A stretch of 32,000 nt of DNA from Candidatus Saccharimonadota bacterium (GCF_029232205.1 NZ_CP107255.1:690001-722000), one strand, 5' to 3'. Shown: positions 12,716 through 32,000, numbered from the stretch's first letter. Notes: generated by a model from the letters alone, not told the origin. Program-made: numbers and translations.

Positions 12716-12765
12716 AAAAACTCAAATACCCATACTTTTCTTCTTTTTTCTTCTCCCTTTCTACA

Positions 12766-12775
12766 AAAGTTTAAA
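12766..12775 (+). promoter_or_regulatory. TATA-like box (aaagtttaaa) upstream of ptfA-ptsH-ptsI
   Basis: aaagtttaaa ends 27 bp before the ptfA ATG at 12802. The same GTTTAAA core occurs upstream of ptfC (11553) and of the 28243 gene (28211). Confidence 0.4.
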
Positions 12776-12801
12776 CCGGTACAAACCGAATAAACAACCA
12801 T

Positions 12802-13532: not shown

Positions 13533-13535
13533 AAA

Positions 13536-19370: not shown

Positions 19371-19678
19371 GTAACCAATATTTGGTAGGATGCTTATACA
19401 CTTCACGAATCACACACCAGGCCAATTTAGTGCCGTAAAACTAACCTAAAGAAAATTAGATCACACTAGAATTTAACCTGCTAATATCATTACCAGGCCC
19501 TTTCCTTCTTGGATTGTTGTCAGCTACCTTGCTGATTGATGCAACTCTTCTGTGGACTTCGTCCATATCCACGTGGCCTCGCTCCGATTCCAGGCTCTAA
19601 AATGATTACAGGCCCAGTAGCCGTTAAATCAGAGTACACCGTCTCCCATACTGTAACTCTCGCGGCCAGTTCGTCGAT

Positions 19679-20035
19679 TTAATCCTTCTTTAAGGACCTA
19701 ATGGCGTCCACAAACTCTACTATTGCCAAAAAAGCAGTTATAAGATAGATAAATGCTATTCCCCTGTGATCGATCCAAAAACCTATGCCATAAACAAAGG
19801 TAAAGACTAAGATAATGCTTGCAAGAAGTCTGAGAGCCGGATGAAAGCTTTCCTTATCTGGTAAACCTAACTCTTTTGAAATCTTGTAAATTACAGGAAT
19901 TAGAATTGCCATAATCAGGTTAATCAATATTGATGCGAGCGGGTTGATCGAACGTAGAGCGACCACGGAAATTGGGTAACCTATGCCAAATGAAATAGTT
20001 GCCAACCCCGTCCAAAACCATTTATTTTCCATCAT
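19679..20035 (-). CDS. Small hypothetical integral membrane protein (about 4 TM helices)
   Basis: 118 aa, nearly all hydrophobic spans (WFWTGLATISFGIGYPISVVAL, ASILINLIMAILIPVIY, LRLLASIILVFTFVYGIGFWI, IAFIYLITAFLAIVEFV). It lies in a GGCC-free, AT-rich segment adjacent to tRNA-Pro. Confidence 0.5.
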   Translation of the reverse strand: MMENKWFWTGLATISFGIGYPISVVALRSINPLASILINLIMAILIPVIYKISKELGLPDKESFHPALRLLASIILVFTFVYGIGFWIDHRGIAFIYLITAFLAIVEFVDAIRSLKKD

Positions 20036-20191
20036 TAAGCAATTTCCGTTAGTTCTTTTTATTCTTACTCACAATAATAAAAAATTACTAATATGAGTAC
20101 AGCTTAATCGACAACAGCCCATAGGTAGAAGTAGAGAGATGAATTCCAAAGTTTTTGCCATTAAATAGTTTTAAGACAGAAGAAAATTCTT

Positions 20192-20264
20192 TGGCAGGAC
20201 CCGGATTTGAACCGGGGTCTGGCCGTCCCAAACGGCCAATGATAGTCCACTACACCATCCCGCC
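20192..20264 (-). tRNA. tRNA-Pro (anticodon TGG)
   Basis: The reverse complement is GGCGGGA-TG-GTGT-AGTGGACTA-TCAT-T-GGCCG-TTTGGGA-CGGCC-AGAC-CCCGG-TTCAAAT-CCGGG-TCCTGCC-A, 73 nt. The anticodon loop UUUGGGA gives UGG. Good acceptor, anticodon and T arms; the D stem has 3 pairs plus one U.U. No intron and no encoded CCA. Confidence 0.9.
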
Positions 20265-20342
20265 AAACGTTAACTGAAAAAGGCCTTTACACCTTTTGAA
20301 CTCTGTATTGAAGTGGTTTGAAGTGAATTCTTTTAAACCATA

Positions 20343-20867
20343 TCAGTGGAGTGTGCCTTCTCTCTTGTCGTAGTCATGTGCGAAAAGCGCGTAACCGATT
20401 TCTGCGGCAGTATAGCCTTTCTCCTCAGCAATCTCTCTTATCGGGCCGATCATCTTCACATAGTCGAAGGCGTCGAATGTTTCCTTTCTACCTTCCAGAT
20501 AGCCGAGTCTTTCAAGCGAGGCCCAGACCCTGGTATCGACCACTGCGTGTTTCTCAGGGTTCAATGCTGTGATTACACAGGATGCTGTCGGGGCCTTGAA
20601 TCCTTTCAAGGAGGAGATCAATGCGATCTTGGAGAAATCTCCCTCGGCCTCTAAAGCATTTCGGGTTACTTCTCTGCAGAGTTCTTCACTATTTTTCCTG
20701 ACGTGGTAGGCGCTTCTGGTTGATGATTCGTACGCTATCTCGTACAGCTGGTCCTGAGTCAGGAATCTCTGGCTGCGATATTTTTCTCCGTATTCTTCCA
20801 GTTTTTCCGGCATAAGGCCTTGAGTTTCAGAGTAAAGTTCTAGGTATTTTTCCACGTCAAGGCTCAT
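20343..20867 (-). CDS. Hypothetical protein with a helix-hairpin-helix/GPD-like segment (possible minimal DNA-glycosylase-like fold)
   Basis: LKGFKAPTASCVITALNPEKHAVVDTRVWASLERLGYL parallels the EndoIII/Ogg HhH-GPD core (L.GVG.KTA..VL........AVDTH(I/V)), including a Lys in the hairpin and the Asp of VDT. The start overlaps the stop of the upstream HD gene by 4 bp. Assignment is by eye only. Confidence 0.4.
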   Translation of the reverse strand: MSLDVEKYLELYSETQGLMPEKLEEYGEKYRSQRFLTQDQLYEIAYESSTRSAYHVRKNSEELCREVTRNALEAEGDFSKIALISSLKGFKAPTASCVITALNPEKHAVVDTRVWASLERLGYLEGRKETFDAFDYVKMIGPIREIAEEKGYTAAEIGYALFAHDYDKREGTLH

Positions 20868-22009
20868 AGTTTTTCCTCAAGTACCTGTTCTGCGGCTTCT
20901 CTGACTTTTGCTTTCTGTGCTGCATCTGTGTAGATGTTCATGTCTACAAGTCTCCATTCGGCCTTGCTTAACGCCTTTGGAATAGGAGAGTAGTTTGAGA
21001 GATTTCTGACATTGCCTTTTCTCTTTATCTTGATATCCATATCTTTGATTTCCGGTGTCCACGGCTTGTTGGCCACTACTTTTTCTTTTGAGACTTGTGC
21101 GGCCTCTGCAATTTCTTTCTCTATTTCTTTCTCATCTACTTTTTCTTCCAGCTTTTTCAGGTCCTCTCTGCTTCTGTTCTCCACATCCCAGCTGAGAGCT
21201 GTTTTAAAGAGATCTCTGTCTTTTATACGCGAATAGTAGTTTCTGGCAGTGCCTGTAGAGTTCAAAAGTTCGTTGTGGGCAGAGTAGTCATCTAGGGCCA
21301 TCATTTTTTCCAGTGAGTTCTTCTCTACATAGTCTTCGAGCGCTCTTTCCAGCATTTTTTCCGCTATTCTGGAGGTGTCGTGGAGGTAGACGGATTTTAT
21401 CATGTGGAATCTTGCGGTAAGTAGTGATTCCAGGGCCTGAACTGCTTTGTAGTCGAATACCAGTCTTCTGGAGTCTATCATTGCTCTCTGAATTATTGTG
21501 TCGGAGTCTATATGGCCGTACTCTGCTCCGGAGGTGTGTGCATCTCTCTGAAGGTAGTCCATTCTGTCGGCGTCGATATCTCCTGCGACTACCTGGCCTA
21601 CCTCGAGTTCTCCTCTAATCATCTTCTTTATTCTGTTGGCGGAGACTGAGAACTTGTCCTCTAGTTTGTCAATTTTTCTGCAGGAAATTTCTTCGTGTGA
21701 GAGGCCTTTCTGTTCTGCTACGGCCTCTGAGGCATGTGAGAAAGGGCCGTGTCCTAGGTCGTGCATGAGGCCTGCCATTCTGACTTCTCTGGTTCTCTGC
21801 TCGTTGAGGTTGAGGCTTTCAGCGAATCTTCCGGCTACATGCATTACGCCGACTGAGTGCTGGAAGCGAGTGTGAGTTCCTGAGGGGTATACCAGCGGGG
21901 ATAGGCCCATCTGTCTTATTCTTCTGAGCCTTTGCATTTCAGGAGAGTCAAGTATTCTCCATTCTTCCTCGTTGGGTTCTATGTATCCGTGCAGAGAATC
22001 TCTTATCAT
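20864..22009 (-). CDS. HD-domain phosphohydrolase, SAMHD1-like dNTP triphosphohydrolase family (COG1078-type)
   Basis: Canonical H..HD..D set in the family-specific context: THTRFQHSVGVMHVAGRFA, AGLMHDLGHGPFSHASE, DADRMDYLQRDAHTSG. The N-terminal IRDSLHGYIE..MQRLRRIRQMG is also typical. Confidence 0.85.
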   Translation of the reverse strand: MIRDSLHGYIEPNEEEWRILDSPEMQRLRRIRQMGLSPLVYPSGTHTRFQHSVGVMHVAGRFAESLNLNEQRTREVRMAGLMHDLGHGPFSHASEAVAEQKGLSHEEISCRKIDKLEDKFSVSANRIKKMIRGELEVGQVVAGDIDADRMDYLQRDAHTSGAEYGHIDSDTIIQRAMIDSRRLVFDYKAVQALESLLTARFHMIKSVYLHDTSRIAEKMLERALEDYVEKNSLEKMMALDDYSAHNELLNSTGTARNYYSRIKDRDLFKTALSWDVENRSREDLKKLEEKVDEKEIEKEIAEAAQVSKEKVVANKPWTPEIKDMDIKIKRKGNVRNLSNYSPIPKALSKAEWRLVDMNIYTDAAQKAKVREAAEQVLEEKL

Positions 22010-22043
22010 TTTACCACTTGAATATTTGAGGACGGAAAAGTTA

Positions 22044-22424
22044 TTACTCCATTGCCGAATCCTGGTTCTTTAGGTCGCGTGTCAGTTCTTCAGCTCTCTG
22101 ACTTGCGAGGCTTTTCATCTCTCTGTGATACGTATGGCGATCTCTTACCCTTTTTTCGTCCAGAACTTTCGCAACAGGTTTATCGCTGCCAGAGTCAATC
22201 CTGATAATCTGAGAGACAGCCTCCGAAACGTACTCAGAGTCAGTCATATCGGCAAGAACAACTACGGCCTCAAAATCTTCAAGCCTGTTGGCGACTTCTC
22301 CTGGAAGATCCATCAATTGATCAACAGCAAATACTTCAGAGCTGAAACCCATCTCCTCCAGTTGAACAGAGGCGTTACGGGCCAGATCTATATCATTTTC
22401 AAGTTCTATAACTGCTACGGCCAT
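22044..22424 (-). CDS. Hypothetical small acidic alpha/beta protein
   Basis: 126-aa ORF with alternating beta/alpha propensity (VAVIELEND, FSSEVFAVD, AVVVLADM), reminiscent of a flavodoxin/receiver-like fold but without recognisable catalytic residues. It sits 34 bp from each flanking same-strand gene. Confidence 0.5.
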   Translation of the reverse strand: MAVAVIELENDIDLARNASVQLEEMGFSSEVFAVDQLMDLPGEVANRLEDFEAVVVLADMTDSEYVSEAVSQIIRIDSGSDKPVAKVLDEKRVRDRHTYHREMKSLASQRAEELTRDLKNQDSAME

Positions 22425-22458
22425 TCAAACAATTTTTGGAGGCCGTGACTAAAGAACT

Positions 22459-23226
22459 TTACTCATCTCCGAAGTCATCCTGTAACTCGATGTATCGGTC
22501 CTGAAGATACGTGAAGTCAGGGCCTTCTCCTGCAAGAGACATAATTGCCTCTTTCCTTGAGATTGCTGTGGCCTCGGCCTGAAGGAAGGCCTCTTCGCTG
22601 TCAGCAGGCATGTAGAAAATCAGTGTTCTGATATCCTTGATCTCCTGATCTGATAGATCGGTGCCGTACTTCTCAATCAGCTCCTGAACACTTACAAGGC
22701 CTGATCTCTTTGGAGTACCGCTAGTATGATAGCTTAACTTGTTTTTCAGTCTTTGAAGAATGGATGGCTTGCTTATGAAGGCCTGAATGCTTTCTTCAGG
22801 ATATCCGAAGAACTCTCCCATTCTCCGGTGATATTTCTCAGGATTATTATCGCGCATGTTCTGATATCTGTCGAAAAAATCGTTAGGGCGGCTTCTGTAG
22901 CTTAGGAAGACTTCTGCATAGACGTATTCGTCCTCCACAACACCGATACCTGTCCAGGTGTGAATTCCGTTGCGGGAAAGATAGTCTGTCCAGGCCTCTA
23001 GAGAGTCTCTGCTGCGGAATTTCTGGCTGTACTCTGCTCCTTTCTTCTCTTCAAGCATAACAAGAAGTGTTTTCAGCCTGTTGAGATCGCTTAACTCTGA
23101 GAAATCATTTTTCAATGTTTCAAAATCTTTTTCCTCTGTCTGCTCCTCGGCCTCTTTGTAAATATAGTTGTCTACATCGTCCAGTGAGCCCCAGAGCTTG
23201 CCCATTTCCCAAAGATCATCTTCCAT
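22459..23226 (-). CDS. Hypothetical acidic protein
   Basis: 255-aa ORF, first gene of a compact minus-strand run (23226 to 20343). I recognise no family. Confidence 0.55.
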   Translation of the reverse strand: MEDDLWEMGKLWGSLDDVDNYIYKEAEEQTEEKDFETLKNDFSELSDLNRLKTLLVMLEEKKGAEYSQKFRSRDSLEAWTDYLSRNGIHTWTGIGVVEDEYVYAEVFLSYRSRPNDFFDRYQNMRDNNPEKYHRRMGEFFGYPEESIQAFISKPSILQRLKNKLSYHTSGTPKRSGLVSVQELIEKYGTDLSDQEIKDIRTLIFYMPADSEEAFLQAEATAISRKEAIMSLAGEGPDFTYLQDRYIELQDDFGDE

Positions 23227-23369
23227 TAAGAACCTTTTTTGAATACCGCGATATTAAACCCGTGGGTCAGCAAGAAATTTTTCCCGAATTTTCCGGGAAT
23301 GAGGGCCTCTATTACAGGGGAAAGCTATTTGAAGCTTTGCCCACATAGTAAGATGAAGGTGACCGGATA

Positions 23370-24323
23370 ATGGGAGAAGTAGATGTGGACTGTGAAGATG
23401 CGAGATTTGAACCAGAGAAAGATAGGGAGGAAGAGGTCTTCAGCTGTCCAAACTGTGGATCCACAGACTTCGTAGAGAACTCGGCGAAAGCAGAGCTAAT
23501 CTGCAGAGACTGTGGCACAGTAGTGGACGAGAACAGAGTAGAGGAATCAGCCAGTCCTAGAGCCTTCTCCGCAGAAGAAAGAAAAAAGAAGGCCCGAACA
23601 GGATCACCTATAACATACACAAAGGCCGGAAAAGGGATAAGAACCTCTATAGGAAAAGGAGGAGAAATGAGAGGAGTAGCCCCTAATAAGAGAGGCCAGT
23701 ACTACAGAATGAAGAAATGGCAGAACAGGATTGGAGAATCCAAGGACAAGAAAATGCAGACAGCTCTCAGAGAGATCGGCAGACTTGTCGACGTACTCAA
23801 CCTTCCTCAGACAGTTAAAGAGGAGGCCTCAAGACTGTACGAAAAGGCAATCGAGAACGACTTGATCAAGGGAAGAAGAATTGAAAGAGTTTCAGCGGCC
23901 CTGGTATACATAGTTGCGAGAAATCAGAGAATACCGCGTACAATGAAAGAAGTAGCAGATGAATCAGGCGTAGATAAGAGAAAACTAGGTCAGACCTACA
24001 GATATATTGCAAAAGAGCTTGAGCTCGGAATAAAACCAGTTAAACCTGAAGATTTTCTCCCAAGATTCTCAGAGGAGCTTGGTATCTCAGGAGAGACACA
24101 GGCCCAGGCCAGAAAATACATTCTGGACGCCAGGAAAGAAAATCTGCTTGCTGGAAGAAGCCCAGGAAGTATTGTAGCTGCTGCAATCTATCTGGCCTCC
24201 GAAAAAAGAGGAGAAAAAGTAACTCAGACAGCAATCGCTGATACCGTAGGAGTAACCGAAGTCACAGTCCGAAAAGGCTACAGAGATCTTATGGAAGGCC
24301 TTGAGATAGAAGATGAGGAATAG
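23370..24323 (+). CDS. tfb: Transcription initiation factor IIB (TFB)
   Basis: N-terminal Zn ribbon CPNCGS..(17)..CRDCGTVV, a B-reader/linker region, then two cyclin-fold repeats (ALREIGRLVDVLNLPQTVKEEASRLYEKA..GRRIERVSAALVYIVAR and PEDFLPRFSEELGISGETQAQARKYI..GRSPGSIVAAAIYLAS), ending in the HTH TQTAIADTVGVTEVTVRKGYRDL. Confidence 0.93.
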   Translation: MGEVDVDCEDARFEPEKDREEEVFSCPNCGSTDFVENSAKAELICRDCGTVVDENRVEESASPRAFSAEERKKKARTGSPITYTKAGKGIRTSIGKGGEMRGVAPNKRGQYYRMKKWQNRIGESKDKKMQTALREIGRLVDVLNLPQTVKEEASRLYEKAIENDLIKGRRIERVSAALVYIVARNQRIPRTMKEVADESGVDKRKLGQTYRYIAKELELGIKPVKPEDFLPRFSEELGISGETQAQARKYILDARKENLLAGRSPGSIVAAAIYLASEKRGEKVTQTAIADTVGVTEVTVRKGYRDLMEGLEIEDEE

Positions 24324-24574
24324 GTCCTCGCTATCACTTTCTTTAAATACCAGAACTGCAAAGTGATGGGTATGGGACTAGGCCTTACCAAGAAGTTCAA
24401 GAAGATGAAAGAGAAAAAGAAAAAAGACGACGAGGACGACGAATAGACAGGTTCTCAAGTTTAAGCCTTCTTTTCTAATTTTCTGAATTTGACCGCTGGC
24501 AGAACTGTTGAAATAACTTTTTCTTCAGAGGACACCAGTGATATCTAATAAGTTGCAGTTACAAGAACAGTGTT

Positions 24575-24841
24575 ATGGTACAGTTCGAGACAATTGAGAA
24601 AGAACGAAGAGACTACGGAAACTTTCCAGGAGAAAAATTCATTGAAGTAAGCAGAAACAAGGCCATCCAGGATGATGGTTCTGAAAACAGCTTTCTGCAG
24701 ATTGCAACAGGATTCTATCAGGACGAAGAACCAAAATACAAGAAAAGATTCACAGTTCCAACCGACGAGAAGGCCGTCGACCACATAGTAGAGAAGCTTC
24801 CTGAAATGTTCGAGAAAGAGAAGGAATCACGGGAAGAGTAA
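24575..24841 (+). CDS. Small hypothetical protein, possibly PC4/YdbC-like ssDNA-binding fold
   Basis: 88 aa. KFIEVSRNKA..NSFLQIATGFYQDEEPKYKKRFTVPTDEKAVDHIVEKLPEM can be laid over the PC4 C-terminal domain [46 protein letters not shown], giving the same beta-beta-beta-helix order and similar hydrophobic spacing. Weak, by eye only. Confidence 0.35.
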   Translation: MVQFETIEKERRDYGNFPGEKFIEVSRNKAIQDDGSENSFLQIATGFYQDEEPKYKKRFTVPTDEKAVDHIVEKLPEMFEKEKESREE

Positions 24842-24883: not shown

Positions 24884-26029
24884 CTAGTCAGAGTAGCGTT
24901 CGATGACTTCAGCCAGGCCCAGAGAGTAATCTGCTGCGCTGTCGGCTGTTGCGTAAGGCATGTCGCGGCCTTCAAGTTCTTGTTCAACAGGCATGCCTTC
25001 CTGGGCTACGAAAGCAGTTTGAGGGCCTTCAAGTATATCACCTGATTTATCTCCCATGCTGACTATCACGTACTCAGTTCCGTCTTCAGTAATCATATCG
25101 GCCCGGTACTTTGCTCCGTGCTCCTTTGAAACACCTATATCTGTTCTCTGGAAGTCTGTGGAGAAATCAGGGTTGTGATCTGTTTCGAAGCTAGTTCCTT
25201 CTGCGATGTCATCCATGAAATCCTGAAACATTTCGAGGTACTCTTCATCAGAGAGATCTGACCTTCCAAGAGAGTTCTCGGTTATTCTTACGTTCTGATC
25301 TCCAGTAGATTCCCATCTAATTCCAACAAGCGGGTACTCCTGTGTTAAAGCATCTGACAGAGCACTTACAGCATTGTCGGAAGAGAGATCAATCACCATT
25401 GAATCTCCCTGCAGAGTATAGGTCTGATCGCTAACTTCTTCACGCTCTTCCAGATACTCTAAAAGAGAGTCCATAGAGAAGTCCTGCCGAGAAGACTCCG
25501 CCATAGGATTTTTATACAGATCTGATCGAACACCTTCACCATACATGCATCCTGTCACAGCGCTAACATTTCCCTGTTCCTGTAGCGTCATCCCTCTGCT
25601 TGCAGCTTCCAGCCATGCATCTCTTCTGAAATCAAGTATCTGTTCCATACCTACATCAACAGTGCTATACGTATCTCCATCTATTTGAGCTACCGCTCCT
25701 AGCTCACCAACATGATCCATGTCAACTCCAAGCTTCTCAGAGGCAACAAAATCCAGCGTAGAAAGATCCCACCCTGAAAGCATAGAAACACCGGTTTCAG
25801 AAACCTGATCCAGCCAACTAATAGCCTCCTTAACACCCTGATGCGTCTCGTAATCTGTAGACTCTTTATCAACTATAGGCCCGTTCATATCAACATACGG
25901 AACAATCACATCCGGCTCCAACCCTTTATTTCTCAAAACACTTTCTATATCATCTGCTACTTGCTCTACTTTATGTTCAGCTACTTCTGCTTCCTCAGCA
26001 GCTTTTCTGGTGGAGCCATGTAAACTCAT
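24884..26029 (-). CDS. Hypothetical acidic protein (weak HAD-like motifs only)
   Basis: 381-aa ORF. VPYVDMNGPIV and SMGDKSGD loosely resemble HAD motifs I and IV, but the second Asp of motif I is Asn, so I make no functional call. Confidence 0.55.
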   Translation of the reverse strand: MSLHGSTRKAAEEAEVAEHKVEQVADDIESVLRNKGLEPDVIVPYVDMNGPIVDKESTDYETHQGVKEAISWLDQVSETGVSMLSGWDLSTLDFVASEKLGVDMDHVGELGAVAQIDGDTYSTVDVGMEQILDFRRDAWLEAASRGMTLQEQGNVSAVTGCMYGEGVRSDLYKNPMAESSRQDFSMDSLLEYLEEREEVSDQTYTLQGDSMVIDLSSDNAVSALSDALTQEYPLVGIRWESTGDQNVRITENSLGRSDLSDEEYLEMFQDFMDDIAEGTSFETDHNPDFSTDFQRTDIGVSKEHGAKYRADMITEDGTEYVIVSMGDKSGDILEGPQTAFVAQEGMPVEQELEGRDMPYATADSAADYSLGLAEVIERYSD

Positions 26030-26218
26030 TTGTTATCTCAAGATAACAATAATCCGCCAGTTTTAATAACATGTTCTTTAACCAGCCAGGAACCAAACAC
26101 CATACCAAAAAATCAATGCTACTCGAGGAATATGCTACAAAACTTGAGAAAAATTAAACTCATTAAGGGACTGGAGGTCAACAAAGACTCCGACCCCTAG
26201 AACCTCCAAAAGGAGGCC

Positions 26219-26977
26219 TTGAGCAGGTCTATCCACTACACCTCACAAATGCAGCAGGAACCTATAAACAACAATCCAGATGACAACCTTAAATACCAGA
26301 CCCCGACAGAAAGATTAAACCCGAAGGCCGTCAAAAACAGTTTACTTAACATGACAGTTACTGAAGAAGTGATCGATAACTACCTGATCTGGGAACTCTG
26401 CAAACAGAAAGACATTCAGAGAAAGATTATGCAAGGCCTTGACGGCAGAAAACTAAAAAGAGAAATAGTGGAAAAAGTCCAGGAAGACTACCGCAGCAAG
26501 GCCTACAGCCTCAGCGAGAAAAAAGAACTGGTCAGGGAAATCTCCAGCAACCCGAAATACCGGCTGAAAAACTTCGAAGGCTGCAACTGGAAAAAGGAAA
26601 AAATAGAGATTGAGGATCTAGGCCCTACTATCCCTCGCGCAGGAGATCTGCCTCCAGAAGTTATCACAGGCAACATTCCCAAAGTAGCAAAATTCGTGGA
26701 AGATGCAGATCCAGAAAAATACCACAGCGTCAGATATATCAGAAAACTGGCACAATATCCTGAAATAATCAACGAATTCAGGCCCTCAGTTCTCTCACCA
26801 GGCAGCACAATCAGACAGATACAGAAAATGAACAGAGTACACGGAGAAAAAGACTGGCAAATCCAAGAAACCTACGGAGCCATAGACGACGGAAACCACC
26901 GAACAACAGCCAGAATACTAGGCGAAGGCCTGGAAGAAATAGAATGCTACATAGGCCATCCAAAAGAAGAATACTAG
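26219..26977 (+). CDS. ParB/sulfiredoxin-fold (ParB N-terminal nuclease-like) domain protein
   Basis: The C-terminal YGAIDDGNHRTTARILGEGLEEIECYIG matches the ParBc core (y.iiDG.HR..A....G...i...v). The listed start is TTG at 26219; an ATG at 26249 (MQQEP...) is an alternative. GGCC density is core-like. Confidence 0.5.
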   Translation: MSRSIHYTSQMQQEPINNNPDDNLKYQTPTERLNPKAVKNSLLNMTVTEEVIDNYLIWELCKQKDIQRKIMQGLDGRKLKREIVEKVQEDYRSKAYSLSEKKELVREISSNPKYRLKNFEGCNWKKEKIEIEDLGPTIPRAGDLPPEVITGNIPKVAKFVEDADPEKYHSVRYIRKLAQYPEIINEFRPSVLSPGSTIRQIQKMNRVHGEKDWQIQETYGAIDDGNHRTTARILGEGLEEIECYIGHPKEEY

Positions 26978-27242
26978 ATCAGAGGATAGCAAACACATCA
27001 ACGCAAGAATTTCCGGATTCGACAAACTATTCGAACACAGAATACCAAAAGGCGCGCCTATAGTAGTCGACGAATTCCTAGCTGACGGAGTAATAATACT
27101 CTACAACCTCAAACAAGACGGCGTCAGACAAAGAGCAGCAGAAATACTCAAAATGAGAGGTGCCAAACACGACGAAAGAATGGCCGCAACGAACATAACC
27201 AGCCAAGGCATCAAAATCTACCCCGACCAAAAAATACTGTAA
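26955..27242 (+). pseudogene. Remnant of a KaiC/RadA-like (RecA-superfamily, COG0467-type) ATPase with the ATPase core deleted
   Basis: The frame is open from 26955 to the TAA at 27240-27242 but has no start codon. It translates to ..INARISGFDKLFEHRIPKGAPIVV|DEFLADGVIILYNLKQDGVRQRAAEILKMRGAKHDERMAATNITSQGIKIYPDQKIL. The first part matches the KaiC-like N-terminus that precedes Walker A (r.sTGi.gLD.ll.GGip.gs..lv). The second part matches the family C-terminus (aDGvi.L......g...R.l.i.KmRG..h......f.It..Gi.v.p). Walker A/B and everything between are missing. Confidence 0.55.
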
Positions 27243-27443
27243 ACTCCTCAAAGAAGCCTCTTTGAGAAGAAAGCCAGGAAGATCTACAAACGCGAAGAAA
27301 ATCAAATAAGAATACTACATTAATTATCAGAGAACAGAAATTTGCTGATTCTCTTGTATATTATTGCTGCTAATAGCCGTCTGAAGAAGTTTTTTATCTC
27401 AAGAATGAAGGAAAATAAGAATAGGTGATAATAAGAGAAACAA

Positions 27444-28001
27444 CTACTTTCTCAGATATGTTGCCAGAGTGACCTTTTCAGTCCTTGTTTTCTCGACTTC
27501 TCGCGTCTTAGTCACAGTTCTTTCTCTCTGAACGTCCTCATAATAAGTCTCTTGTTTAGTTCCAGGACTTACTCTGGCTTGAGTACAGTCTCTTTCTAAA
27601 TCAGCCTCAGTGCTTGCAGAGAACTCTACAGATTCTCCAGCAGGGACATAGTTTTGATCTGAAAGAGTCAATTCTGCTGAAGAAGATGTACAAGTATCAA
27701 AAGCAACTTCAAAGTTTCCTCCTTCGTTATCAGTATTTCTGACATCAATAGATACTGTGTCGCTCCCAAACCCAAGAGGTGCCTCACCTAAAGTAAAATC
27801 AAAAGTCTCATATTCTAGGTCAACCGTTCTTTCTCTAGCTACTTGTTCAGTATATGTTTCTGTCGTTTCATATGGCTCAGCTTCTGTATAAGTTTGTTCA
27901 ACAGGCATAACAGGAACAGCAAAAGCCCCTAAACCTACAATTATTAATCCTAAAACTCCAAATCCGCCATAAACTTGCTTTTTATCGAAAGTATTAGACA
28001 T
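27444..28001 (-). CDS. Membrane-anchored T/E-rich extracellular protein (Ig-like beta domain)
   Basis: I place the start at ATG 28001 (MSNTFDKKQVYGGFGVLGLIIVGLGAFAVPVMP = N-terminal anchor). The beta-rich core IDVRNTDNEGGNFEVAF is flanked by two RERTV-containing segments (VARERTVDLEYE and VQRERTVTKTRE). No family recognised. Confidence 0.55.
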   Translation of the reverse strand: MSNTFDKKQVYGGFGVLGLIIVGLGAFAVPVMPVEQTYTEAEPYETTETYTEQVARERTVDLEYETFDFTLGEAPLGFGSDTVSIDVRNTDNEGGNFEVAFDTCTSSSAELTLSDQNYVPAGESVEFSASTEADLERDCTQARVSPGTKQETYYEDVQRERTVTKTREVEKTRTEKVTLATYLRK

Positions 28002-28210
28002 AACGACAATATCACACATTAACCTTAACAAATTTTCGTTAAATACAGTCCGCGACAAAAACACTTAGAATACCAAACAAAACAGCGTAGAACCCTATCA
28101 GCATAACAAGCGAAATGAGCTCCAGGGAGAACCCAACAAACTTATTCTAAGAAGCCTGGTGTTTTTACACTCTACAACCAGTCTAAACCTTCAAAGCCCA
28201 AAAATCGAAG

Positions 28211-28222
28211 AAAGTTTAAAAG
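28211..28222 (+). promoter_or_regulatory. TATA-like box (aaagtttaaaag) for the 28243 gene
   Basis: It ends 21 bp upstream of the ATG at 28243 and has the same GTTTAAA core as the PTS promoters. This supports the ATG at 28243 over the GTG at 28159. Confidence 0.4.
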
Positions 28223-28242
28223 CTACTTCAAAATACGTTTTT

Positions 28243-28992
28243 ATGGATATTACTATGAGTAAGACGGTCAGTTGGATATTTGGAGTTTTATTAATTCTCG
28301 CAGGGCTGGGAGCGCTTACTACAAGCCCTATTGCAGGAATAATTTACTTCCTTACAGGTATTTTCTTGATACCGAATATAAGGCAAGAGATAGATCAGAG
28401 ATATAATATAACCTTCTCAAGATGGGTGGTTGTTCTGGTAACAGTGATTGGATTAGGCTTAGGTGCGGCAATGATGCCAGGAGATGCTACATCGCCAACA
28501 AGCAACAATACGAACAACCAAGAACCAGCACGAGACACAGGAAGCCAAGATAGTTCACAGCCTAGCAAAGAAGATAGAACTCACGAAATTGGCACCGAAT
28601 TTACAGTTGGAGATGTTAGATACAGAGTAAATGGTGTGACAACGAGACAAGAGATTGGAGAAAGAGTAGCAGGTACCCTCATGGGCGTGGAGGCAAATGG
28701 AAAATTCCTGATAGTGGATACGACAGTGATGAATGAAGCAAACGAAGCAATCACAATGAGAGAATCTAGTCTCAAAGTAATGATCGGCGATTCAGAGTAC
28801 AGCCCAAGTTCAGAAGCATGGGTATACATGGACGACAGCTTCACATTCGAGCAGCTCAATCCAGGAGTACAAGTAGATGGCGATGTTGCCTACGATGTGC
28901 CAGCATCAGCAAACACAAGCTCGATGAAGCTTGAAGTAAATCCAGTAGGAGTCTTCTCAACAGCAGAACCACACTACGTTAGCTTAGGGTAA
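28243..28992 (+). CDS. Membrane-anchored DUF4352-like (Ig-fold) extracellular protein
   Basis: Two N-terminal TM helices (VSWIFGVLLILAGLGALTT, IAGIIYFLTGIFLIP), a third (WVVVLVTVIGLGLGAAMM), and a low-complexity linker. Then GTEFTVGDVRYRVNGV..ANGKFLIVDTTVMNEANEAITMRESSLKVMIGDSEYSPS..VDGDVAYDVP, which follows the DUF4352 pattern. Confidence 0.6.
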   Translation: MDITMSKTVSWIFGVLLILAGLGALTTSPIAGIIYFLTGIFLIPNIRQEIDQRYNITFSRWVVVLVTVIGLGLGAAMMPGDATSPTSNNTNNQEPARDTGSQDSSQPSKEDRTHEIGTEFTVGDVRYRVNGVTTRQEIGERVAGTLMGVEANGKFLIVDTTVMNEANEAITMRESSLKVMIGDSEYSPSSEAWVYMDDSFTFEQLNPGVQVDGDVAYDVPASANTSSMKLEVNPVGVFSTAEPHYVSLG

Positions 28993-29181
28993 AAAACCCT
29001 TTTTCCCTCTCTTTTTGAAGCGAAACAGAATACAGTTTTTGCCTGTAGCAGCCCGCGGTATAAGAAACTTTAAGCCCCGAGAGGGCCACCACGCCTTTAT
29101 GAATAGTCTATGTCAATATGCAGGTATTATAGACTTGCAACTCGGTTCTTATAAGTTATTTGATTGCTAGAGTTATTAATT

Positions 29182-29325
29182 ATGGTTAAAGTACAAGAAG
29201 GTTCCAATGGACAAAGACTAATCACCATTCCACGAGAACTGGCAAGAGCTATGGGTATCAAAAAGGGAGAAGAATTGGAATTTTCAGTTAGAGACGAGAA
29301 GAGTTTAGTACTTACAAAAACCTAA
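29182..29325 (+). CDS. AbrB/SpoVT/MazE-type swapped-hairpin DNA-binding micro-protein (47 aa); absent from the ORF track because it is under 60 aa
   Basis: The ATG at 29182 to the TAA at 29323-29325 translates to MVKVQEGSNGQRLITIPRELARAMGIKKGEELEFSVRDEKSLVLTKT. This is a near-textbook SpoVT-AbrB domain (..g.r.itIPkelr..lgik.Gdele..v.d.g.ivl.k). Confidence 0.65.
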   Translation: MVKVQEGSNGQRLITIPRELARAMGIKKGEELEFSVRDEKSLVLTKT

Positions 29326-29425
29326 ATACGGAGAATGAACCCTCTTATACAATAAATTCTCATTTAACTCATTAGCTGGATAAGATATTTACAAATACTG
29401 CCCAAAAACATGTATAGACCTATAT

Positions 29426-30049
29426 ATGCCGCTAGCAAGCATTCTACAATCAGGCACTCTCCTTATAGTGACGATATTAGTTTTCTTCACTCCAGGTTTT
29501 ATCTCAATAAAGGTTTACGATCTATTAGTTCCAACTGGAAAAAGAGATTTTTCAAGTTCTGACCTATTTGAAGCATTTGGATACAGTGTTCTGAATTATG
29601 GACTATTCGTAAGTATGGGCTATGTATTCTACATATCCAATCTTTTCGAAAACCCAGTTGCTCTCGGATTCTACGTAGTATTTGCTTTATTCATTGCTCC
29701 TGCAATAGGAGGAGTATTAGTAAAGAATTTACAAAATACCACAGATAGCACAGCATGGGACCATGTGCTTAAAGACGATAAAGGCTACTGGACAATAATA
29801 ACGCTGAATAACGGAAAGAAAATAGCGGGGAAATTTGGAAAGGAGAAGTCTTTTGCCACAACTTACCCTCAAAAAAGAGAAATATATCTAGAGAAGTTAT
29901 ACGACGTGGATGAGAACGGAAAGTTTGGCGATCCTGTTGAAGATTCGAAAGGAATAATAATCTCGGAGGATAATTTTAAGATGATAGAACTATTTAGAAA
30001 AGGTGAAGAAGATGGGAAAGGACAAGAAAAAGAAGGACAAGAAGAATAA
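29426..30049 (+). CDS. Hypothetical membrane protein (three N-terminal TM helices plus a soluble C-terminal domain)
   Basis: TM segments GTLLIVTILVFFTPGFISI, YSVLNYGLFVSMGYVFYI and ALGFYVVFALFIAPAIGGVLV, then a K/E-rich soluble domain. AT-rich with no GGCC. No confident family. Confidence 0.55.
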   Translation: MPLASILQSGTLLIVTILVFFTPGFISIKVYDLLVPTGKRDFSSSDLFEAFGYSVLNYGLFVSMGYVFYISNLFENPVALGFYVVFALFIAPAIGGVLVKNLQNTTDSTAWDHVLKDDKGYWTIITLNNGKKIAGKFGKEKSFATTYPQKREIYLEKLYDVDENGKFGDPVEDSKGIIISEDNFKMIELFRKGEEDGKGQEKEGQEE

Positions 30050-30162
30050 TATCAAAAAGAAAGGAGGGCATCAGCCCAGTGAAGATCCAGGAGAAAAGCC
30101 TTCAGGTCATACAGTTACGCTCTCAGACGAAGAAGACGAGTAATTATTACTCTTTTTCATTT

Positions 30163-30924
30163 TTAGGAATCTTGACCACTATAAGCTGCCTCATAAGCTC
30201 TTTCTCCACTTCCTATAGTCGAGCTCTCTGAAAGTTGACATCCAGACAAGGCTTCCATTACTACATTCAGATCCTCGGGAAGATCCTCATGTTTCCAGCT
30301 CAGTATTAAAATCTCTCTAAATAGTATTCGGATAAACAGCTCGTGGATAGTTAGATCGTTGCCATCTAACGTGCTAGCAGCGTATACTTTGAAGAACTCT
30401 TTCAGATTTTCATTGTCCTCCGCAACTTGTTCAAACTTTTGATACTTGTCTCTCATCTCCTGTTCAAAACTTGATAATGCCCCGCTTATTCGTTCCTCAA
30501 CCTCTTCAAAGTCTATCGATGATTGACCTTCGGGAGCGTAATCCTCTTCATTTTCTTTTATCGACGAAATCATGTCTTGAAGTGCGTCTTGTTTCGTAAC
30601 TTTTTCACCTTCTCTATCAGTGAATGTTACATCCAGTAAGTATAGTACATAATTCTTCCAGCTTTGATAGAATGCGTTATAATTCAGCTTATAATATTGG
30701 GCTTTGGTTCTTTTTCCTCTTTCCAAGAATCCTGCATCCCGTAATTGTTTGATGTAATTAGCTACAGATTCCTTTGATGTGCTATAGCCCATGTTGTTGA
30801 GCCTTTCAGTTACCTCCTTCGAGTAAAGCTGTGAGTTTGATAGATTGTAGATATGTAGGATATTGTAGGCCATTTCCGAAGTATAGAGCTTTCTCAGTTC
30901 CTCATCAAAGGAATAATCTGGCAT
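30163..30924 (-). CDS. Winged helix-turn-helix DNA-binding protein with a long helical C-terminal domain
   Basis: YSKEVTERLNNMGYSTSKESVANYIKQLRDAGFLERGKRTKAQYYKLN is a classic wHTH (recognition helix plus basic wing). I prefer the start at ATG 30924 (MPDYSF) because a TTAATAA TATA-like element lies ~26 bp upstream. The ORF-track start is 30945. Confidence 0.6.
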   Translation of the reverse strand: MPDYSFDEELRKLYTSEMAYNILHIYNLSNSQLYSKEVTERLNNMGYSTSKESVANYIKQLRDAGFLERGKRTKAQYYKLNYNAFYQSWKNYVLYLLDVTFTDREGEKVTKQDALQDMISSIKENEEDYAPEGQSSIDFEEVEERISGALSSFEQEMRDKYQKFEQVAEDNENLKEFFKVYAASTLDGNDLTIHELFIRILFREILILSWKHEDLPEDLNVVMEALSGCQLSESSTIGSGERAYEAAYSGQDS

Positions 30925-30977
30925 ATTAGAGGTATAATATGTCAAGATTAATAAGAGTTGAGGTTATGTTGTTCTAC
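30925..30977. promoter_or_regulatory. Compact bidirectional promoter with one shared, near-palindromic TATA element (gattaataag, 30946-30955)
   Basis: The element is centred ~26 bp from the minus-strand ATG (30924) and ~28 bp from the plus-strand ATG (30978). Read on either strand it gives a TTAATAA/CTTATTAATC TATA-like box at the distance expected for leaderless transcripts. Confidence 0.4.
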
Positions 30978-31169
30978 ATGACCAGCTCATCTAGTCAAAT
31001 TAAAGGTAAAAAATCCCAAGTTAAATCTAGTTCATTCACTCTTCACATGACAGATGAAATGAAGGACAACCTCAACAAAACATCAAGAACCACAGGATTA
31101 GGAATGGCAGAAATCGTAAGAAGAGGTATTCACAGCCAATTAAATCAGCTTAAGGAGGAGTCAGAATGA
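30978..31169 (+). CDS. Ribbon-helix-helix (CopG/Arc-like) DNA-binding protein
   Basis: SSSFTLHMTDEMKDNLNKTSRTTGLGMAEIVRRGIHSQLNQL has the beta-strand/helix/G-turn/helix layout of RHH proteins. I place the start at the internal ATG 30978; the ORF-track start 30939 would sit inside the divergent promoter. Confidence 0.6.
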   Translation: MTSSSSQIKGKKSQVKSSSFTLHMTDEMKDNLNKTSRTTGLGMAEIVRRGIHSQLNQLKEESE

Positions 31170-31255
31170 AGCAAGACCTTGACACACAACTAGAAAACCT
31201 CATAGAAAAGAAAATGAGAGAACTCAGCCAACAATCTGAGTCTCAAAAACTCTAG
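31166..31255 (+). CDS. Possible 29-aa helical micro-protein coupled to the upstream RHH gene
   Basis: The ATG at 31166 overlaps the TGA at 31167-31169 (ATGA). It translates to MKQDLDTQLENLIEKKMRELSQQSESQKL. The only support is the coupling geometry and the lack of alternatives in this gap. Confidence 0.3.
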   Translation: MKQDLDTQLENLIEKKMRELSQQSESQKL

Positions 31256-31298
31256 AAAAACAGATCTGATCTCCAGTCAGACACTCGCGATTCAAACA

Positions 31299-31502
31299 AT
31301 GACATCACTAATAACCGAATTTAAAAACAGTTCCGAATCGGCCAACAACGGGCCAAAACACCAACTAACAGTCAGATTCACTTCGAGACAAATAAGAAAA
31401 ATCGAGAAATTATCTAGAAACTCAAACATTTCTCTAGCAGAATCATGCAGAAGAATTGTCTCAGAAGGCCTTAAACAAAGAGGTGAAAGATTCCATGGCT
31501 GA
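31299..31502 (+). CDS. Ribbon-helix-helix (CopG-like) DNA-binding protein
   Basis: HQLTVRFTSRQIRKIEKLSRNSNISLAESCRRIVSEGLKQ has the RHH layout. Its 3' end overlaps the next gene's ATG (31495) by 8 nt. Confidence 0.6.
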   Translation: MTSLITEFKNSSESANNGPKHQLTVRFTSRQIRKIEKLSRNSNISLAESCRRIVSEGLKQRGERFHG

Positions 31503-32000
31503 AACAAAGACGATAAGCCTAAACAGTGAAGCTCATCGCCTTTACAAAGAACATAAGGAAACCATAGACACACATTTTGACGGAATATCAGGTCTTTTCC
31601 GACACGCACTACGTAACTTGGATGATGGTGAAGCCTTCGATAAAAAGAAGAAACGGCTAAAGCAGGACATAAAGCAGTTTCAAGAAAGGATAGAAGAGAA
31701 ACAAAATGAGATAGAGACTCTTGAAATTCAGCAGAACCTAACTGAAAAGAACGAAAAAGTAGAAGAGCTAGAGAGCAGACTCGACGAACTAAATAAGTCA
31801 ATAGAAAACTTCGAAAGTCAGAAAACTAGAGAAGAATTGGTAGAAGAGCAAAAAAGAAAGAGAAAACAAAGAGGCCACGACATAGATGATCCAGAGGTTA
31901 AGGAAGCTATAGAAAAGAGCGTTGAAAGAGAACTCAGAAAAAGAACTGATCTGGATGATCTTAAACAGGAAAAAGAAAATGTGGAAGAAGAACTTCAAAC
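31495..32000 (+). CDS. RHH-like N-terminus fused to a long coiled coil; 3' end outside the window, so not listed in the ORF track
   Basis: The frame is open from the ATG at 31495 to the window end. It translates to MAETKTISLNSEAHRLYKEHKETIDTHFDGISGLFRHALRNL (RHH-like), followed by heptad-like K/E/Q-rich sequence (KQDIKQFQERIEEKQNEIETLEIQQNLTEKNEKVEELESRLDELNKSIENFE...). The long minus-strand ORFs here are antisense artefacts. Confidence 0.55.
   Translation, partial: MAETKTISLNSEAHRLYKEHKETIDTHFDGISGLFRHALRNLDDGEAFDKKKKRLKQDIKQFQERIEEKQNEIETLEIQQNLTEKNEKVEELESRLDELNKSIENFESQKTREELVEEQKRKRKQRGHDIDDPEVKEAIEKSVERELRKRTDLDDLKQEKENVEEELQ

What the first reader, a model, noticed from the sequence alone, without database searches (positions are those of the whole stretch)
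27243..32000. Compositionally foreign segment with plasmid/virus-like regulatory genes: probable integrated element of an uncharacterised type
From ~27.25 kb onward the DNA is more AT-rich and nearly free of GGCC. It encodes two divergently transcribed Ig-fold surface proteins, an AbrB-type micro-protein, a 3-TM membrane protein, a wHTH protein, three consecutive RHH proteins with ATGA or 8-nt start/stop overlaps, and a coiled-coil protein. This repertoire is characteristic of archaeal plasmids and temperate viruses. No capsid, replication or integrase gene is recognisable within the ~4.8 kb visible, so the element type is open. If the host is a nano-sized halophilic archaeon, its mobile elements are poorly known.
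Basis: partly seen in the sequence, partly recalled or inferred. Interest (0 to 1): 0.7.

Follow-up and report, generated by a model that had tools for sequence, protein, structure and literature searches.

The report
Mobile element inserted at tRNA-Thr
The AT-rich end of this window is one arm of a plasmid-like mobile element inserted into a threonine-tRNA gene of the nano-sized halophilic archaeon Candidatus Nanohalovita; the mechanism is ordinary, but the family is undescribed and the genome was published as having no genomic islands.

Summary
From 27243 to 32000 the GC fraction is 0.384 against 0.448 in the rest. There are 6 GGCC sites where about 39 are expected (P about 6e-11). The tetranucleotide profile there is the most deviant in the window.

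The window comes from Candidatus Nanohalovita haloferacivicina (Nanohaloarchaeota).

The segment is two units, not one. Positions 29073-29085 (AGCCCCGAGAGGG) are an orphan copy of the last 13 nt of tRNA-Thr(UGU). The closest complete genome, M3_22, has an intact tRNA-Thr at the syntenic place.

To the right of this attL-like site lie an AbrB micro-protein, a DUF6338 membrane protein, a winged-helix regulator and a divergent operon of RHH proteins.

The AbrB, winged-helix and RHH module recurs in relatives:
- L021 is a complete 12.8-kb integrated element. It runs from a 13-nt repeat through AbrB, the winged-helix protein, RHH, a DnaG-type primase protein and two ATPases to a tyrosine integrase beside an intact tRNA-Ile.
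- L011 is an episome-like permutation with AbrB, an attP-like core and the integrase side by side.
- Other relatives carry an MmeI-type restriction enzyme or BREX.

No capsid gene is seen in any of them.

Positions 27243-29072 hold a DUF4352 protein and a membrane-anchored beta-rich protein. This stretch is also foreign in composition but lies outside the att site.

The integrase end of the window's own element lies beyond 32000 and could not be retrieved.

The parts
26979..27242 (+). Flank marker: remnant of a KaiC-family ATPase gene. About 25 N-terminal residues are fused to the last 55 residues, with no start codon. Its composition is host-like.
   Evidence: Translation. Pfam PF06745 hit, profile positions 176-230 of 231, E 1.7e-13. 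A GGCC site lies at 27182.
27243..29055 (.). AT-rich, GGCC-free islet lying outside the att site. It may be a remnant of an older insertion or lineage-specific cargo. Its origin is unresolved.
   Evidence: GC 0.399 and 0 GGCC in 27243-29072. GC3 0.317. No homolog in any fetched locus.
27444..28001 (-). 185-aa protein with one N-terminal membrane anchor and a beta-rich acidic ectodomain. Its family is unknown.
   Evidence: Called as 185 aa on contig L001. No Pfam, PHROG or NCBIfam hit. Hydrophobic stretch at residues 9-27. Low-confidence all-beta model.
28255..28992 (+). Membrane-anchored DUF4352 protein. This domain is frequent as accessory cargo of temperate phages and plasmids.
   Evidence: PF11611 E 3e-17 and phrog_806 E 3.6e-26. 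tblastn hits in 62 phage and 37 plasmid records.
29056..29072 (.). Sequence resembling the trailer downstream of tRNA-Thr. It aligns with the corresponding flank in M3_22 and in L012.
   Evidence: Alignment. Nucleotide homology between the window and L012 ends at 29056.
29073..29085 (-). attL core AGCCCCGAGAGGG. On the minus strand it reads CCCTCTCGGGGCT. This is the T-stem 3' strand, the acceptor 3' strand and the discriminator of tRNA-Thr(UGU), present as an orphan fragment.
   Evidence: Window 29070-29085 matches L003 12730-12745 exactly over 16 nt. That is the 3' end of the M3_22 tRNA-Thr at c[12732,12808]. Matches with up to 3 mismatches are expected 0.10 times per window. Among the loci the core occurs only in tRNA-Thr genes and in this element and its variant.
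29182..29325 (+). AbrB/SpoVT-type micro-protein (47 aa). It is the first gene inside the element and is conserved at this position in relatives.
   Evidence: PF04014 E 8.7e-10. Homologs sit next to att in L021, L011 and L012.
29426..30049 (+). DUF6338 membrane protein. It is variable cargo: absent from L021 and L011, and replaced by an 87-aa membrane protein in L012.
   Evidence: PF19865 E 5.2e-30. Gene maps.
30163..30924 (-). 253-aa regulator with an N-terminal winged helix (wing RGKRTKAQYY) and a helical C-terminal domain that matches no known structure. It is the signature gene of the module.
   Evidence: 100% identical to a hypothetical protein of Candidatus Nanohalovita haloferacivicina. 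AlphaFold pLDDT 84.8; only residues 1-100 match PadR, MarR, Fur or ArsR folds. About 10 full-length relatives at E<=1e-30 among 1.84 billion representative proteins.
30925..30977 (.). 53-bp A/T-rich divergent control region between the winged-helix gene and the RHH operon. It contains ATATTA-N6-TAATAT at 30923-30940. A regulatory role is inferred, not tested.
   Evidence: Sequence and alignment with L012, L011 and L009. The start codons were reassigned from that alignment.
30978..31169 (+). RHH (CopG/Arc-type) protein, the first gene of the rightward operon. It is conserved in L012 (89% identity), L009/L021 (61%) and L011 (53%).
   Evidence: PF01402 E 0.0018 and phrog_876 E 1.6e-6. All-against-all BLASTP.
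31166..31255 (+). 29-aa ORF overlapping the previous stop codon (ATGA). It is also called on L001 and L012.
31299..31502 (+). Second small RHH/Arc-like protein (67 aa).
   Evidence: phrog_3431 E 0.0088 and NikA-like E 0.03. 92.5% identical ORF in L012.
31495..32000 (+). Coiled-coil protein cut by the window end. It is 182 aa on L001 and ends at the equivalent of window position 32043.
   Evidence: 82% identical over the visible 168 aa to an L012 ORF. Only coiled-coil-type weak hits.

Best explanation
Window 29073-32000 is the att-proximal (left) arm of a plasmid-like integrative element inserted into the 3' end of the tRNA-Thr(UGU) gene of Candidatus Nanohalovita haloferacivicina. It continues beyond the window.

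The mechanism below is inferred from complete relatives. It is not shown for this copy.
- A circular form carries an attP core between the AbrB gene and a tyrosine-integrase gene.
- The integrase recombines attP with the identical last 13 nt of the tRNA gene.
- This leaves an intact tRNA next to the integrase at the far end.
- It leaves a displaced 13-nt copy next to AbrB at the near end. That copy is what the window shows at 29073-29085.

Inside the element, the leftward winged-helix regulator and the rightward operon of small RHH proteins are transcribed from a 53-bp shared A/T-rich region. This probably forms the maintenance or activation switch.

In relatives the rightward operon runs into a DnaG/Toprim-type replication protein of 1100-1230 aa, P-loop ATPases and sometimes defence cargo. 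DUF6338 is variable cargo.

The AT-rich islet at 27243-29072 is a separate foreign piece lying outside the att site.
For: Shown directly in the window:
1. Positions 29070-29085 match the 3' end of the tRNA-Thr(UGU) of strain M3_22 exactly over 16 nt. No tRNA-Thr gene is in the window.
2. M3_22 is colinear with window 10605-15203 and 20343-24838. It then has an intact tRNA-Thr 1.2 kb after the ortholog of 24542-24838. None of the window genes from 24884 onward has a match in the M3_22 locus.
3. The variant element L012 is 84-87% identical in DNA. It shares the sequence right of the core and the core itself, and diverges 17 nt to the left of it.
4. Foreign composition and codon usage.

Shown in relatives that share the AbrB, winged-helix and RHH module (36-44% identity for the winged-helix protein, 53-61% for RHH):
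5. L021 is a complete element of about 12.76 kb. It has a 13-nt direct repeat, AGTGGACCGGCCC, at 5953 and 18715. The right copy is the 3' end of an intron-containing tRNA-Ile(GAU). A 467-aa tyrosine integrase lies beside that tRNA, and AbrB starts 90 nt from the left copy. Conserved host genes flank one side (colinear with M3_22) and host-type genes (LSM, ribosomal protein S8e) the other.
6. L011 has AbrB, an attP-like GGGCCGGTCCA and the integrase adjacent to each other. This integrase is 61% identical to that of L021. The contig ends continue L021's gene order, as expected of a circular form.

The window's core lies about 97 nt (29085 to 29182) upstream of its AbrB gene. This is the same arrangement as in L021.
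Against: - Only one att copy is visible. No integrase, replication gene or intact tRNA-Thr could be seen, because the available sequence ends at the equivalent of 32881 (L001).
- A profile search with the relatives' replication protein returned 19 proteins, none labelled Nanohalovita. The MmeI-type enzyme of variant L012 also has no Nanohalovita ortholog. This copy may therefore use another replicon or be truncated.
- The core is short (13-16 nt).
- The empty site is inferred from another species, with 83% identity in TFB.
- The genome paper reports no genomic islands in this strain (PMC10266531).
- The islet at 27243-29072 is not explained by this model.
Confidence: 0.78

Rival explanations
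1. It is a provirus. On this reading the element is a temperate archaeal virus (pleomorphic, spindle-shaped or unknown) whose structural genes lie beyond the window.
For: - AbrB, RHH and winged-helix micro-regulators are typical of archaeal virus early regions. The RHH protein hits PHROG repressor families.
- DUF4352 is common in temperate phages.
- Integrase-bearing spindle-shaped and pleomorphic viruses of Nanohaloarchaeota exist (preprint 10.1101/2025.02.15.638363).
Against: - The complete relative L021 has no protein with a hydrophobic stretch inside the element. It therefore has no hairpin capsid protein and no VP3- or VP4-like membrane proteins. No structural PHROG hit was found among the larger relative proteins scanned.
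- No relative was found in 2.9 million IMG/VR contigs with two proteins, a family alignment and a DNA pattern.
- There is no tblastn hit in 50,697 phage records.
- The DUF4352 gene lies outside the att site.
Confidence: 0.1
2. It is an immobile remnant. An element of this family once integrated at tRNA-Thr, but its integrase or replication module has since been lost. What is left is a domesticated block of regulators and cargo.
For: - No Nanohalovita ortholog of the family's replication protein was found.
- Nearby decay is evident: the KaiC remnant at 26979-27242.
- An independent assembly (L001) shows the same integrated junction with only four 1-nt homopolymer differences.
Against: - All eight visible ORFs inside the element are intact.
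- The variant L012 keeps them at 67-93% protein identity, which indicates purifying selection or recent spread.
- The absence of a replication protein and an integrase is untested, because the far end could not be read.
Confidence: 0.2
3. It is native chromosome. On this reading it is a lineage-specific, weakly expressed regulatory region whose AT-richness is not due to horizontal origin, and the tRNA-like 16-mer is a coincidence.
For: - Other short AT-rich, GGCC-poor genes occur in the host part of the window, at 6933-7832 and 19679-20035.
- Island-prediction software found nothing in this genome.
Against: - An exact 16-mer has about 1.5e-5 chance occurrences per window (my arithmetic).
- It falls at the syntenic tRNA-Thr place.
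- It falls at the point where the L012 variant diverges.
- It falls at the position where the family's att site is expected.
- The signature genes travel with integrases in other genomes at other tRNA genes.
Confidence: 0.03

Closest known systems
tRNA-targeting integrative plasmids of Euryarchaeota, such as the pTN3 and pT26-2 families of Thermococcales and Methanococcales. This comparison rests on my own knowledge; PMC6972569 was seen only as a title and abstract.
   Same: - A circular plasmid-like element with a tyrosine integrase recombines with the 3' end of a tRNA gene.
- The integrase gene stays intact after integration.
- The element is flanked by a short direct repeat of the tRNA end.
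- It carries a primase-type replication protein, P-loop ATPases and many small DNA-binding proteins.
   Different: - No sequence relationship was detected. The winged-helix signature protein has no hit in 72,556 plasmid records.
- The replication protein has a bacterial-type DnaG/Toprim primase domain. As far as I recall, those families use an archaeo-eukaryotic primase or MCM.
- The host is a DPANN symbiont.
- None of the membrane or conjugation-like genes of the pT26-2 core is present.
Temperate pleolipovirus SNJ2 and related haloarchaeal proviruses (PMC5861418; seen as abstract).
   Same: - The setting is halophilic archaea.
- Integration is by a tyrosine integrase.
- The element exists in both a circular and an integrated state.
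   Different: SNJ2-type elements carry a pleolipovirus morphogenetic module (spike, matrix protein, ATPase). The complete relative L021 has no membrane protein at all.
Viruses and spindle-virus-related circular satellites (SRCEs) of Nanohaloarchaeota (Zhou et al., preprint 10.1101/2025.02.15.638363).
   Same: - The host phylum is the same.
- Some of them encode tyrosine integrases.
- Some are small plasmid-like circles with an AAA+ ATPase.
   Different: - Those are defined by capsid signature genes (hairpin capsid protein, HRPV1 VP3/VP4-like proteins and so on).
- They replicate with rolling-circle or archaeo-eukaryotic primase-helicase proteins.
- Neither feature is present here.
- The terms DnaG, Zot, wHTH and RHH do not occur in that text.
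Small haloarchaeal plasmids encoding Toprim-domain proteins: Halorubrum sp. BOL3-1 (14.0 kb), Halomarina sp. BCD28 (10.8 kb) and Halorubrum litoreum (18.3 kb).
   Same: The relatives' replication protein shares its DnaG/Toprim region with them at about 25% identity.
   Different: The similarity covers only 17-21% of the protein. The plasmid proteins are annotated as hypothetical, and the rest of the gene content was not compared.

Membership tests
tRNA-integrating element with a tyrosine recombinase (archaeal integrative plasmid or cryptic integrated element) | A border marked by a copy of the 3' end of a tRNA gene | tested here: met
   Window 29073-29085 equals the last 13 nt of tRNA-Thr(UGU). 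The exact match to the M3_22 tRNA-Thr end runs over 16 nt.
tRNA-integrating element with a tyrosine recombinase (archaeal integrative plasmid or cryptic integrated element) | A second copy of the core inside an intact tRNA gene at the other border | not testable with these tools
   It lies beyond 32000. The only extension available (L001) reaches 32881. The source genome was not retrievable. The feature is met in the relative L021 with tRNA-Ile.
tRNA-integrating element with a tyrosine recombinase (archaeal integrative plasmid or cryptic integrated element) | A tyrosine integrase encoded by the element | not testable with these tools
   No integrase or integrase fragment is found in the window. 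Integrases are present in relatives that share the module: L021 (467 aa) and L011 (472 aa), which are 61% identical.
tRNA-integrating element with a tyrosine recombinase (archaeal integrative plasmid or cryptic integrated element) | The element is absent from the same site in a related genome (empty site) | tested here: met
   M3_22 has an uninterrupted tRNA-Thr at the syntenic place, and the window's element genes find no match in that locus. This is a cross-species comparison only; no same-species empty allele is available.
tRNA-integrating element with a tyrosine recombinase (archaeal integrative plasmid or cryptic integrated element) | Composition distinct from the host | tested here: met
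   GC is 0.374 against 0.448. GGCC occurs 5 times in 2915 nt against 8.2/kb in the host. GC3 is 0.340 against 0.449.
tRNA-integrating element with a tyrosine recombinase (archaeal integrative plasmid or cryptic integrated element) | An extrachromosomal circular form exists | tested here: inconclusive
   For the relative L011, gene order is that of a circularised element and the contig carries no host gene. No terminal overlap was found. Nothing is known for the window's own element.
Provirus of a known archaeal virus group | A hallmark capsid or morphogenesis gene | tested here: not met
   No structural hit was found among the visible genes or among the larger relative proteins scanned. No hydrophobic protein occurs inside L021. 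The unseen part of the window's own element remains untested.
Type II toxin-antitoxin pair (MazE/AbrB antitoxin with a toxin) | An adjacent co-directional toxin gene (MazF, PIN, Doc or similar) | tested here: not met
   The AbrB gene is followed by DUF6338 in the window, by an 87-aa membrane protein in L012, and directly by the convergent winged-helix gene in L021 and L011. PADLOC gives no hit.
Pfam domain families DUF4352, DUF6338, AbrB/MazE (PF04014) and RHH_1 | Score above the curated gathering threshold | tested here: met
   Scores against cut-offs: 63.5 vs 25.9, 105 vs 26.5 and 38.8 vs 24.7 bits. RHH_1 falls just below (18.6 vs 20.5) but is supported by PHROG repressor families.

The most novel reading that the evidence does not exclude
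The window holds one copy of a so far undescribed family of integrative plasmids of Nanohaloarchaeota (DPANN). The family would be defined by four features:
- an AbrB, winged-helix and RHH control module;
- a 13-nt att core equal to the end of a tRNA gene, with different tRNAs in different lineages;
- a giant DnaG/Toprim-type replication protein;
- interchangeable defence cargo (MmeI-type restriction enzyme, BREX).

Such a family would be a vehicle for gene flow and immunity among nano-sized symbionts, and a candidate backbone for a genetic tool in a cultivated DPANN archaeon.
Probability: 0.4. Interest if true: 0.6.

Novelty: new member of a known kind. Interest (0 to 1): 0.42.

Why it matters
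Candidatus Nanohalovita haloferacivicina BNXNv is one of the few cultivated DPANN archaea, and its genome paper states that it has no genomic islands. A site-specific integrative element in it would correct that picture.

If the integrase end is intact, the element offers an att site, an integrase and possibly a replicon. These could be turned into the first genetic tools for nanohaloarchaea.

At the family level, the relatives show that such elements move restriction and BREX systems between these reduced genomes.

The mechanism itself, tyrosine-integrase insertion into a tRNA 3' end, is textbook.

Tried and rejected
**Extending the contig**
- The source genome is not in the species-representative genome collection.
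- Its proteins are not in the gene-position index.
- Only Logan contig L001 (window 26456-32881) was found.
- Proteins from L001 itself may not be looked up.
- One look-up was wasted on a mis-set minus-strand coordinate.

**Walking on through variant L012's MmeI-type enzyme**
- The nearest relative, P0010, lies in an unrelated context (L022).

**Searching for the family's replication protein in Nanohalovita**
- None was found among 19 hits.

- There is no repeat of the core there, no tRNA fragment and no Rfam hit.

**An SSV-type split integrase at the border**
- There is no integrase fragment in the window.

**The L021 core in the window**
- AGTGGACCGGCCC is absent from the window. The two lineages use different tRNAs.

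**Virus collections and annotated phages or plasmids**
- The winged-helix protein found nothing.
- The metagenome scan gave only six short contigs.

**Function of the winged-helix protein's C-terminal domain**
- No match in PDB or BFVD by fold, nor in PDB by sequence.

**Defence-system models**
- PADLOC gave nothing meaningful for the visible genes.

**GGCC scarcity read as restriction avoidance**
- Rejected as the sole cause. The segment has the number of GGCC sites expected from its own composition (6 against 6.5-7.7).
- It is the host that is enriched, through GGC and GCC codon use.

**Bacterial promoter and terminator scan**
- Uninformative.

Full report
**Origin of the window.** The 260-aa ORF at 30163-30945 is 100% identical to a hypothetical protein of Candidatus Nanohalovita haloferacivicina, from a 1,046,959-bp contig. 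The left 27 kb encodes an archaeal TFB, an HD-domain protein, a PTS with enzyme I, and three giant LamG-repeat surface proteins. The closest complete genome available is Nanohaloarchaea archaeon M3_22, with 83% identity in TFB.

**Check of the observation.**
- GC is 0.384 for 27243-32000 against 0.448 before it.
- GGCC occurs 6 times against 224, that is 1.26 against 8.22 per kb. The Poisson probability is 6e-11.
- CCGG is absent from the segment. CTAG is depleted only in the host part.
- The tetranucleotide profile of the last 4.76 kb is the most deviant of all sliding windows.
- GGCC is the most over-represented tetranucleotide of the host part. It is 3.3 times the base-composition expectation and 1.67 times the second-order Markov expectation. 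It lies mostly in codon frames GGC-Cnn and nnG-GCC.
- The segment has the GGCC count expected from its own composition. GC3 falls from 0.449 to 0.32-0.34.
- The signal is therefore a difference in codon usage and origin. It is not specific avoidance of GGCC.
- The gene calls are largely right: DUF4352, AbrB/MazE, DUF6338, a winged-helix protein, RHH proteins and a coiled coil.
- The Ig fold of the 27444-28064 product is not verified.

**Where the border really is.**
- Window 29070-29085 (TTAAGCCCCGAGAGGG) matches L003 12730-12745 exactly over 16 nt. This is the 3' end of the tRNA-Thr(UGU) gene of M3_22, annotated at c[12732,12808].
- Read on the minus strand, the 13-nt core CCCTCTCGGGGCT is the 3' strand of the T stem, the 3' strand of the acceptor stem and the discriminator base.
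- To the right of the core, the tRNA sequence (ATTTGAACCC...) is replaced by unrelated DNA (CCACCACGCC...).
- The window has no tRNA-Thr gene, even when introns are allowed.
- With up to three mismatches the 16-mer is expected 0.10 times per window. An exact match is expected about 1.5e-5 times (my arithmetic).
- Among all loci fetched, the core occurs only in the tRNA-Thr genes of M3_22 and of L021's host, in L001 (the same strain as the window) and in L012, a variant of the element.

**Three independent facts place meaning on this spot.**
1. M3_22 is colinear with window 10605-15203 and 20343-24838. It has its intact tRNA-Thr 1.2 kb after the ortholog of 24542-24838. None of the window genes from 24884 onward has a match in that locus.
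2. L012 carries the same element at 84-87% DNA identity. It shares the core and everything to its right. It shares only 17 nt to its left, and these also resemble the M3_22 tRNA trailer.
3. The core lies about 97 nt upstream of the AbrB gene. This is the position of the att repeat in the complete relative described next.

**The family.** The winged-helix protein has few relatives. Eight clusters were found in a 5.8-billion-protein search. About ten full-length representatives at E<=1e-30 were found among 1.84 billion. Their contigs show one conserved module. AbrB is convergent with the winged-helix gene, which is divergent from an RHH gene that opens an operon.

**L021, a complete integrated relative** (Logan ERR11028073). 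Its layout, left to right, is:
- host GTPase, NUDIX and glutaredoxin genes, colinear with M3_22, followed by two small ORFs;
- AGTGGACCGGCCC at 5953-5965;
- AbrB, then the winged-helix gene, then RHH and three small ORFs;
- a 1228-aa protein with DnaG_N and Toprim domains;
- small ORFs, a Zot/DnaA-like P-loop ATPase and an AAA+ ATPase;
- more small ORFs and a 467-aa tyrosine integrase;
- AGTGGACCGGCCC again at 18715-18727;
- host LSM and ribosomal protein S8e genes.

The right copy is the 3' end of tRNA-Ile(GAU), which carries a 138-nt intron. Default ARAGORN and Rfam missed this gene; ARAGORN with introns allowed found it. The element is about 12.76 kb. None of its small proteins has a hydrophobic stretch, so it has no membrane or capsid candidates.

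**L011, an episome-like relative.** It has the winged-helix gene, AbrB, then GGGCCGGTCCA (the same tRNA-Ile end), then a 472-aa integrase that is 61% identical to L021's. It carries no host gene. Its two contig ends continue each other in L021's gene order. This is the arrangement expected of the excised circle, with attP between AbrB and the integrase. No terminal overlap proves circularity.

**Cargo in other relatives.** L012 has a 1327-aa MmeI/Eco57I-type restriction-modification enzyme after the regulators. L023 has BrxA, BrxC/PglY and BrxB after the replication protein.

**Reading of the window.**
- Positions 29073-29085 are the attL core.
- AbrB (29182-29325) is the first element gene.
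- DUF6338 (29426-30049) is variable cargo.
- The winged-helix regulator (30163-30924) is transcribed leftward.
- A 53-bp A/T-rich region follows. It contains ATATTA-N6-TAATAT over the regulator's start codon.
- The rightward operon then runs: RHH (30978-31169), a 29-aa ORF, a second RHH-like protein (31299-31502) and a coiled-coil protein that runs off the window.
- On L001 the operon continues with an RHH-like/zinc-ribbon protein and another small winged-helix protein, up to the equivalent of 32881.

That the two regulators form a switch is inference from gene arrangement only. The winged-helix protein's model (pLDDT 84.8) matches PadR, MarR, Fur and ArsR folds only in residues 1-100. The helical C-terminal half has no structural or sequence match.

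**What remains outside the model.** Positions 27243-29072 hold a 185-aa anchored beta-rich protein and the DUF4352 protein. This stretch is equally AT-rich and free of GGCC, but it lies on the host side of attL. DUF4352 proteins are common accessory genes of temperate phages and plasmids. A remnant of an older insertion is therefore plausible. However, no second core copy or integrase trace was found. Immediately to its left is a KaiC-family gene remnant (26979-27242) with host-like composition.

**Limits.**
- No Nanohalovita ortholog of the relatives' replication protein or of L012's restriction enzyme was found.
- This copy may therefore carry a different replicon or be truncated.

**Literature.**
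- The genome paper states that no genomic islands were found in this strain (PMC10266531).
- A 2025 preprint describes nanohaloarchaeal viruses and satellites defined by capsid signatures.
- A 2024 Nature Microbiology survey of DPANN mobile elements is cited in PMC13573593 but is not held in the library. I could not check whether this family appears there.

**Verdict.** This is a real integrated mobile element of a familiar mechanistic kind, from a small and apparently undescribed family. Its border is redefined to a 13-nt tRNA-Thr remnant. The interest is moderate.

Noticed in passing
window 1-27242: GGCC is the most over-represented tetranucleotide of the host DNA. There are 224 sites, against 69 expected from base composition and 134 from a second-order Markov model. 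Most lie in codon frames GGC-Cnn and nnG-GCC. The related host in L009/L021 does not show this enrichment.
   Followed up: partly
window 6933-7832 and 19679-20035: Two further AT-rich, GGCC-poor genes (GC 0.377 and 0.381) with no meaningful family assignment. Each lies next to a tRNA gene: tRNA-Tyr at 7892-7965 and tRNA-Pro at 20191-20265. They may be other small foreign islets.
   Followed up: no
window 26979-27242: Remnant of a KaiC-family ATPase gene. About 25 N-terminal residues are fused to the last 55 residues, and there is no start codon. It sits exactly at the compositional break.
   Followed up: yes
window 24884-26977: A 381-aa acidic protein with no known family and a 252-aa protein ending in a DGNHR-type motif. 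Neither has a match in the M3_22 locus. The second has a 51% identical homolog in Nanohaloarchaea SG9, near the same tRNA-Pro and HD-gene cluster. Synteny with M3_22 therefore already breaks at 24838.
   Followed up: partly
L021 18716-18929 and 19652-19793: tRNA-Ile(GAU) has a 138-nt intron and tRNA-Lys(UUU) has a 67-nt intron. Both were missed by default ARAGORN, and the tRNA-Ile stretch also by an Rfam scan. Routine att-site searches in these genomes would overlook them.
   Followed up: yes
L012 144-4127; L023 6823-14228: Relatives of the element carry defence cargo. L012 has an MmeI/Eco57I-type restriction-modification enzyme of 1327 aa. L023 has a BREX cluster (BrxA, BrxC/PglY, BrxB) downstream of the DnaG-type replication protein.
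   Followed up: partly
window 28016, 29069, 30168, 31323: The window differs from the independent assembly L001 only by four 1-nt homopolymer indels. One of them decides whether the 67-aa RHH ORF (31299-31502) is intact. The L012 ortholog supports the window's version.
   Followed up: yes
window 720-3941, 4069-6864, 17187-19406 and 10221-15203: Three giant LamG-repeat surface proteins. There is also a complete sugar phosphotransferase system (EIIB, EIIC, EIIA, enzyme I) with a PfkB kinase (10605-11597), in a nano-sized symbiont.
   Followed up: no
L014 10001-13480 and flanks: A more distant homolog of the DnaG-type replication protein lies in a larger cluster. The cluster also holds a DUF87 (HerA/VirB4-like) ATPase and three proteins of more than 1100 aa. 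It may be a different, larger element type.
   Followed up: no
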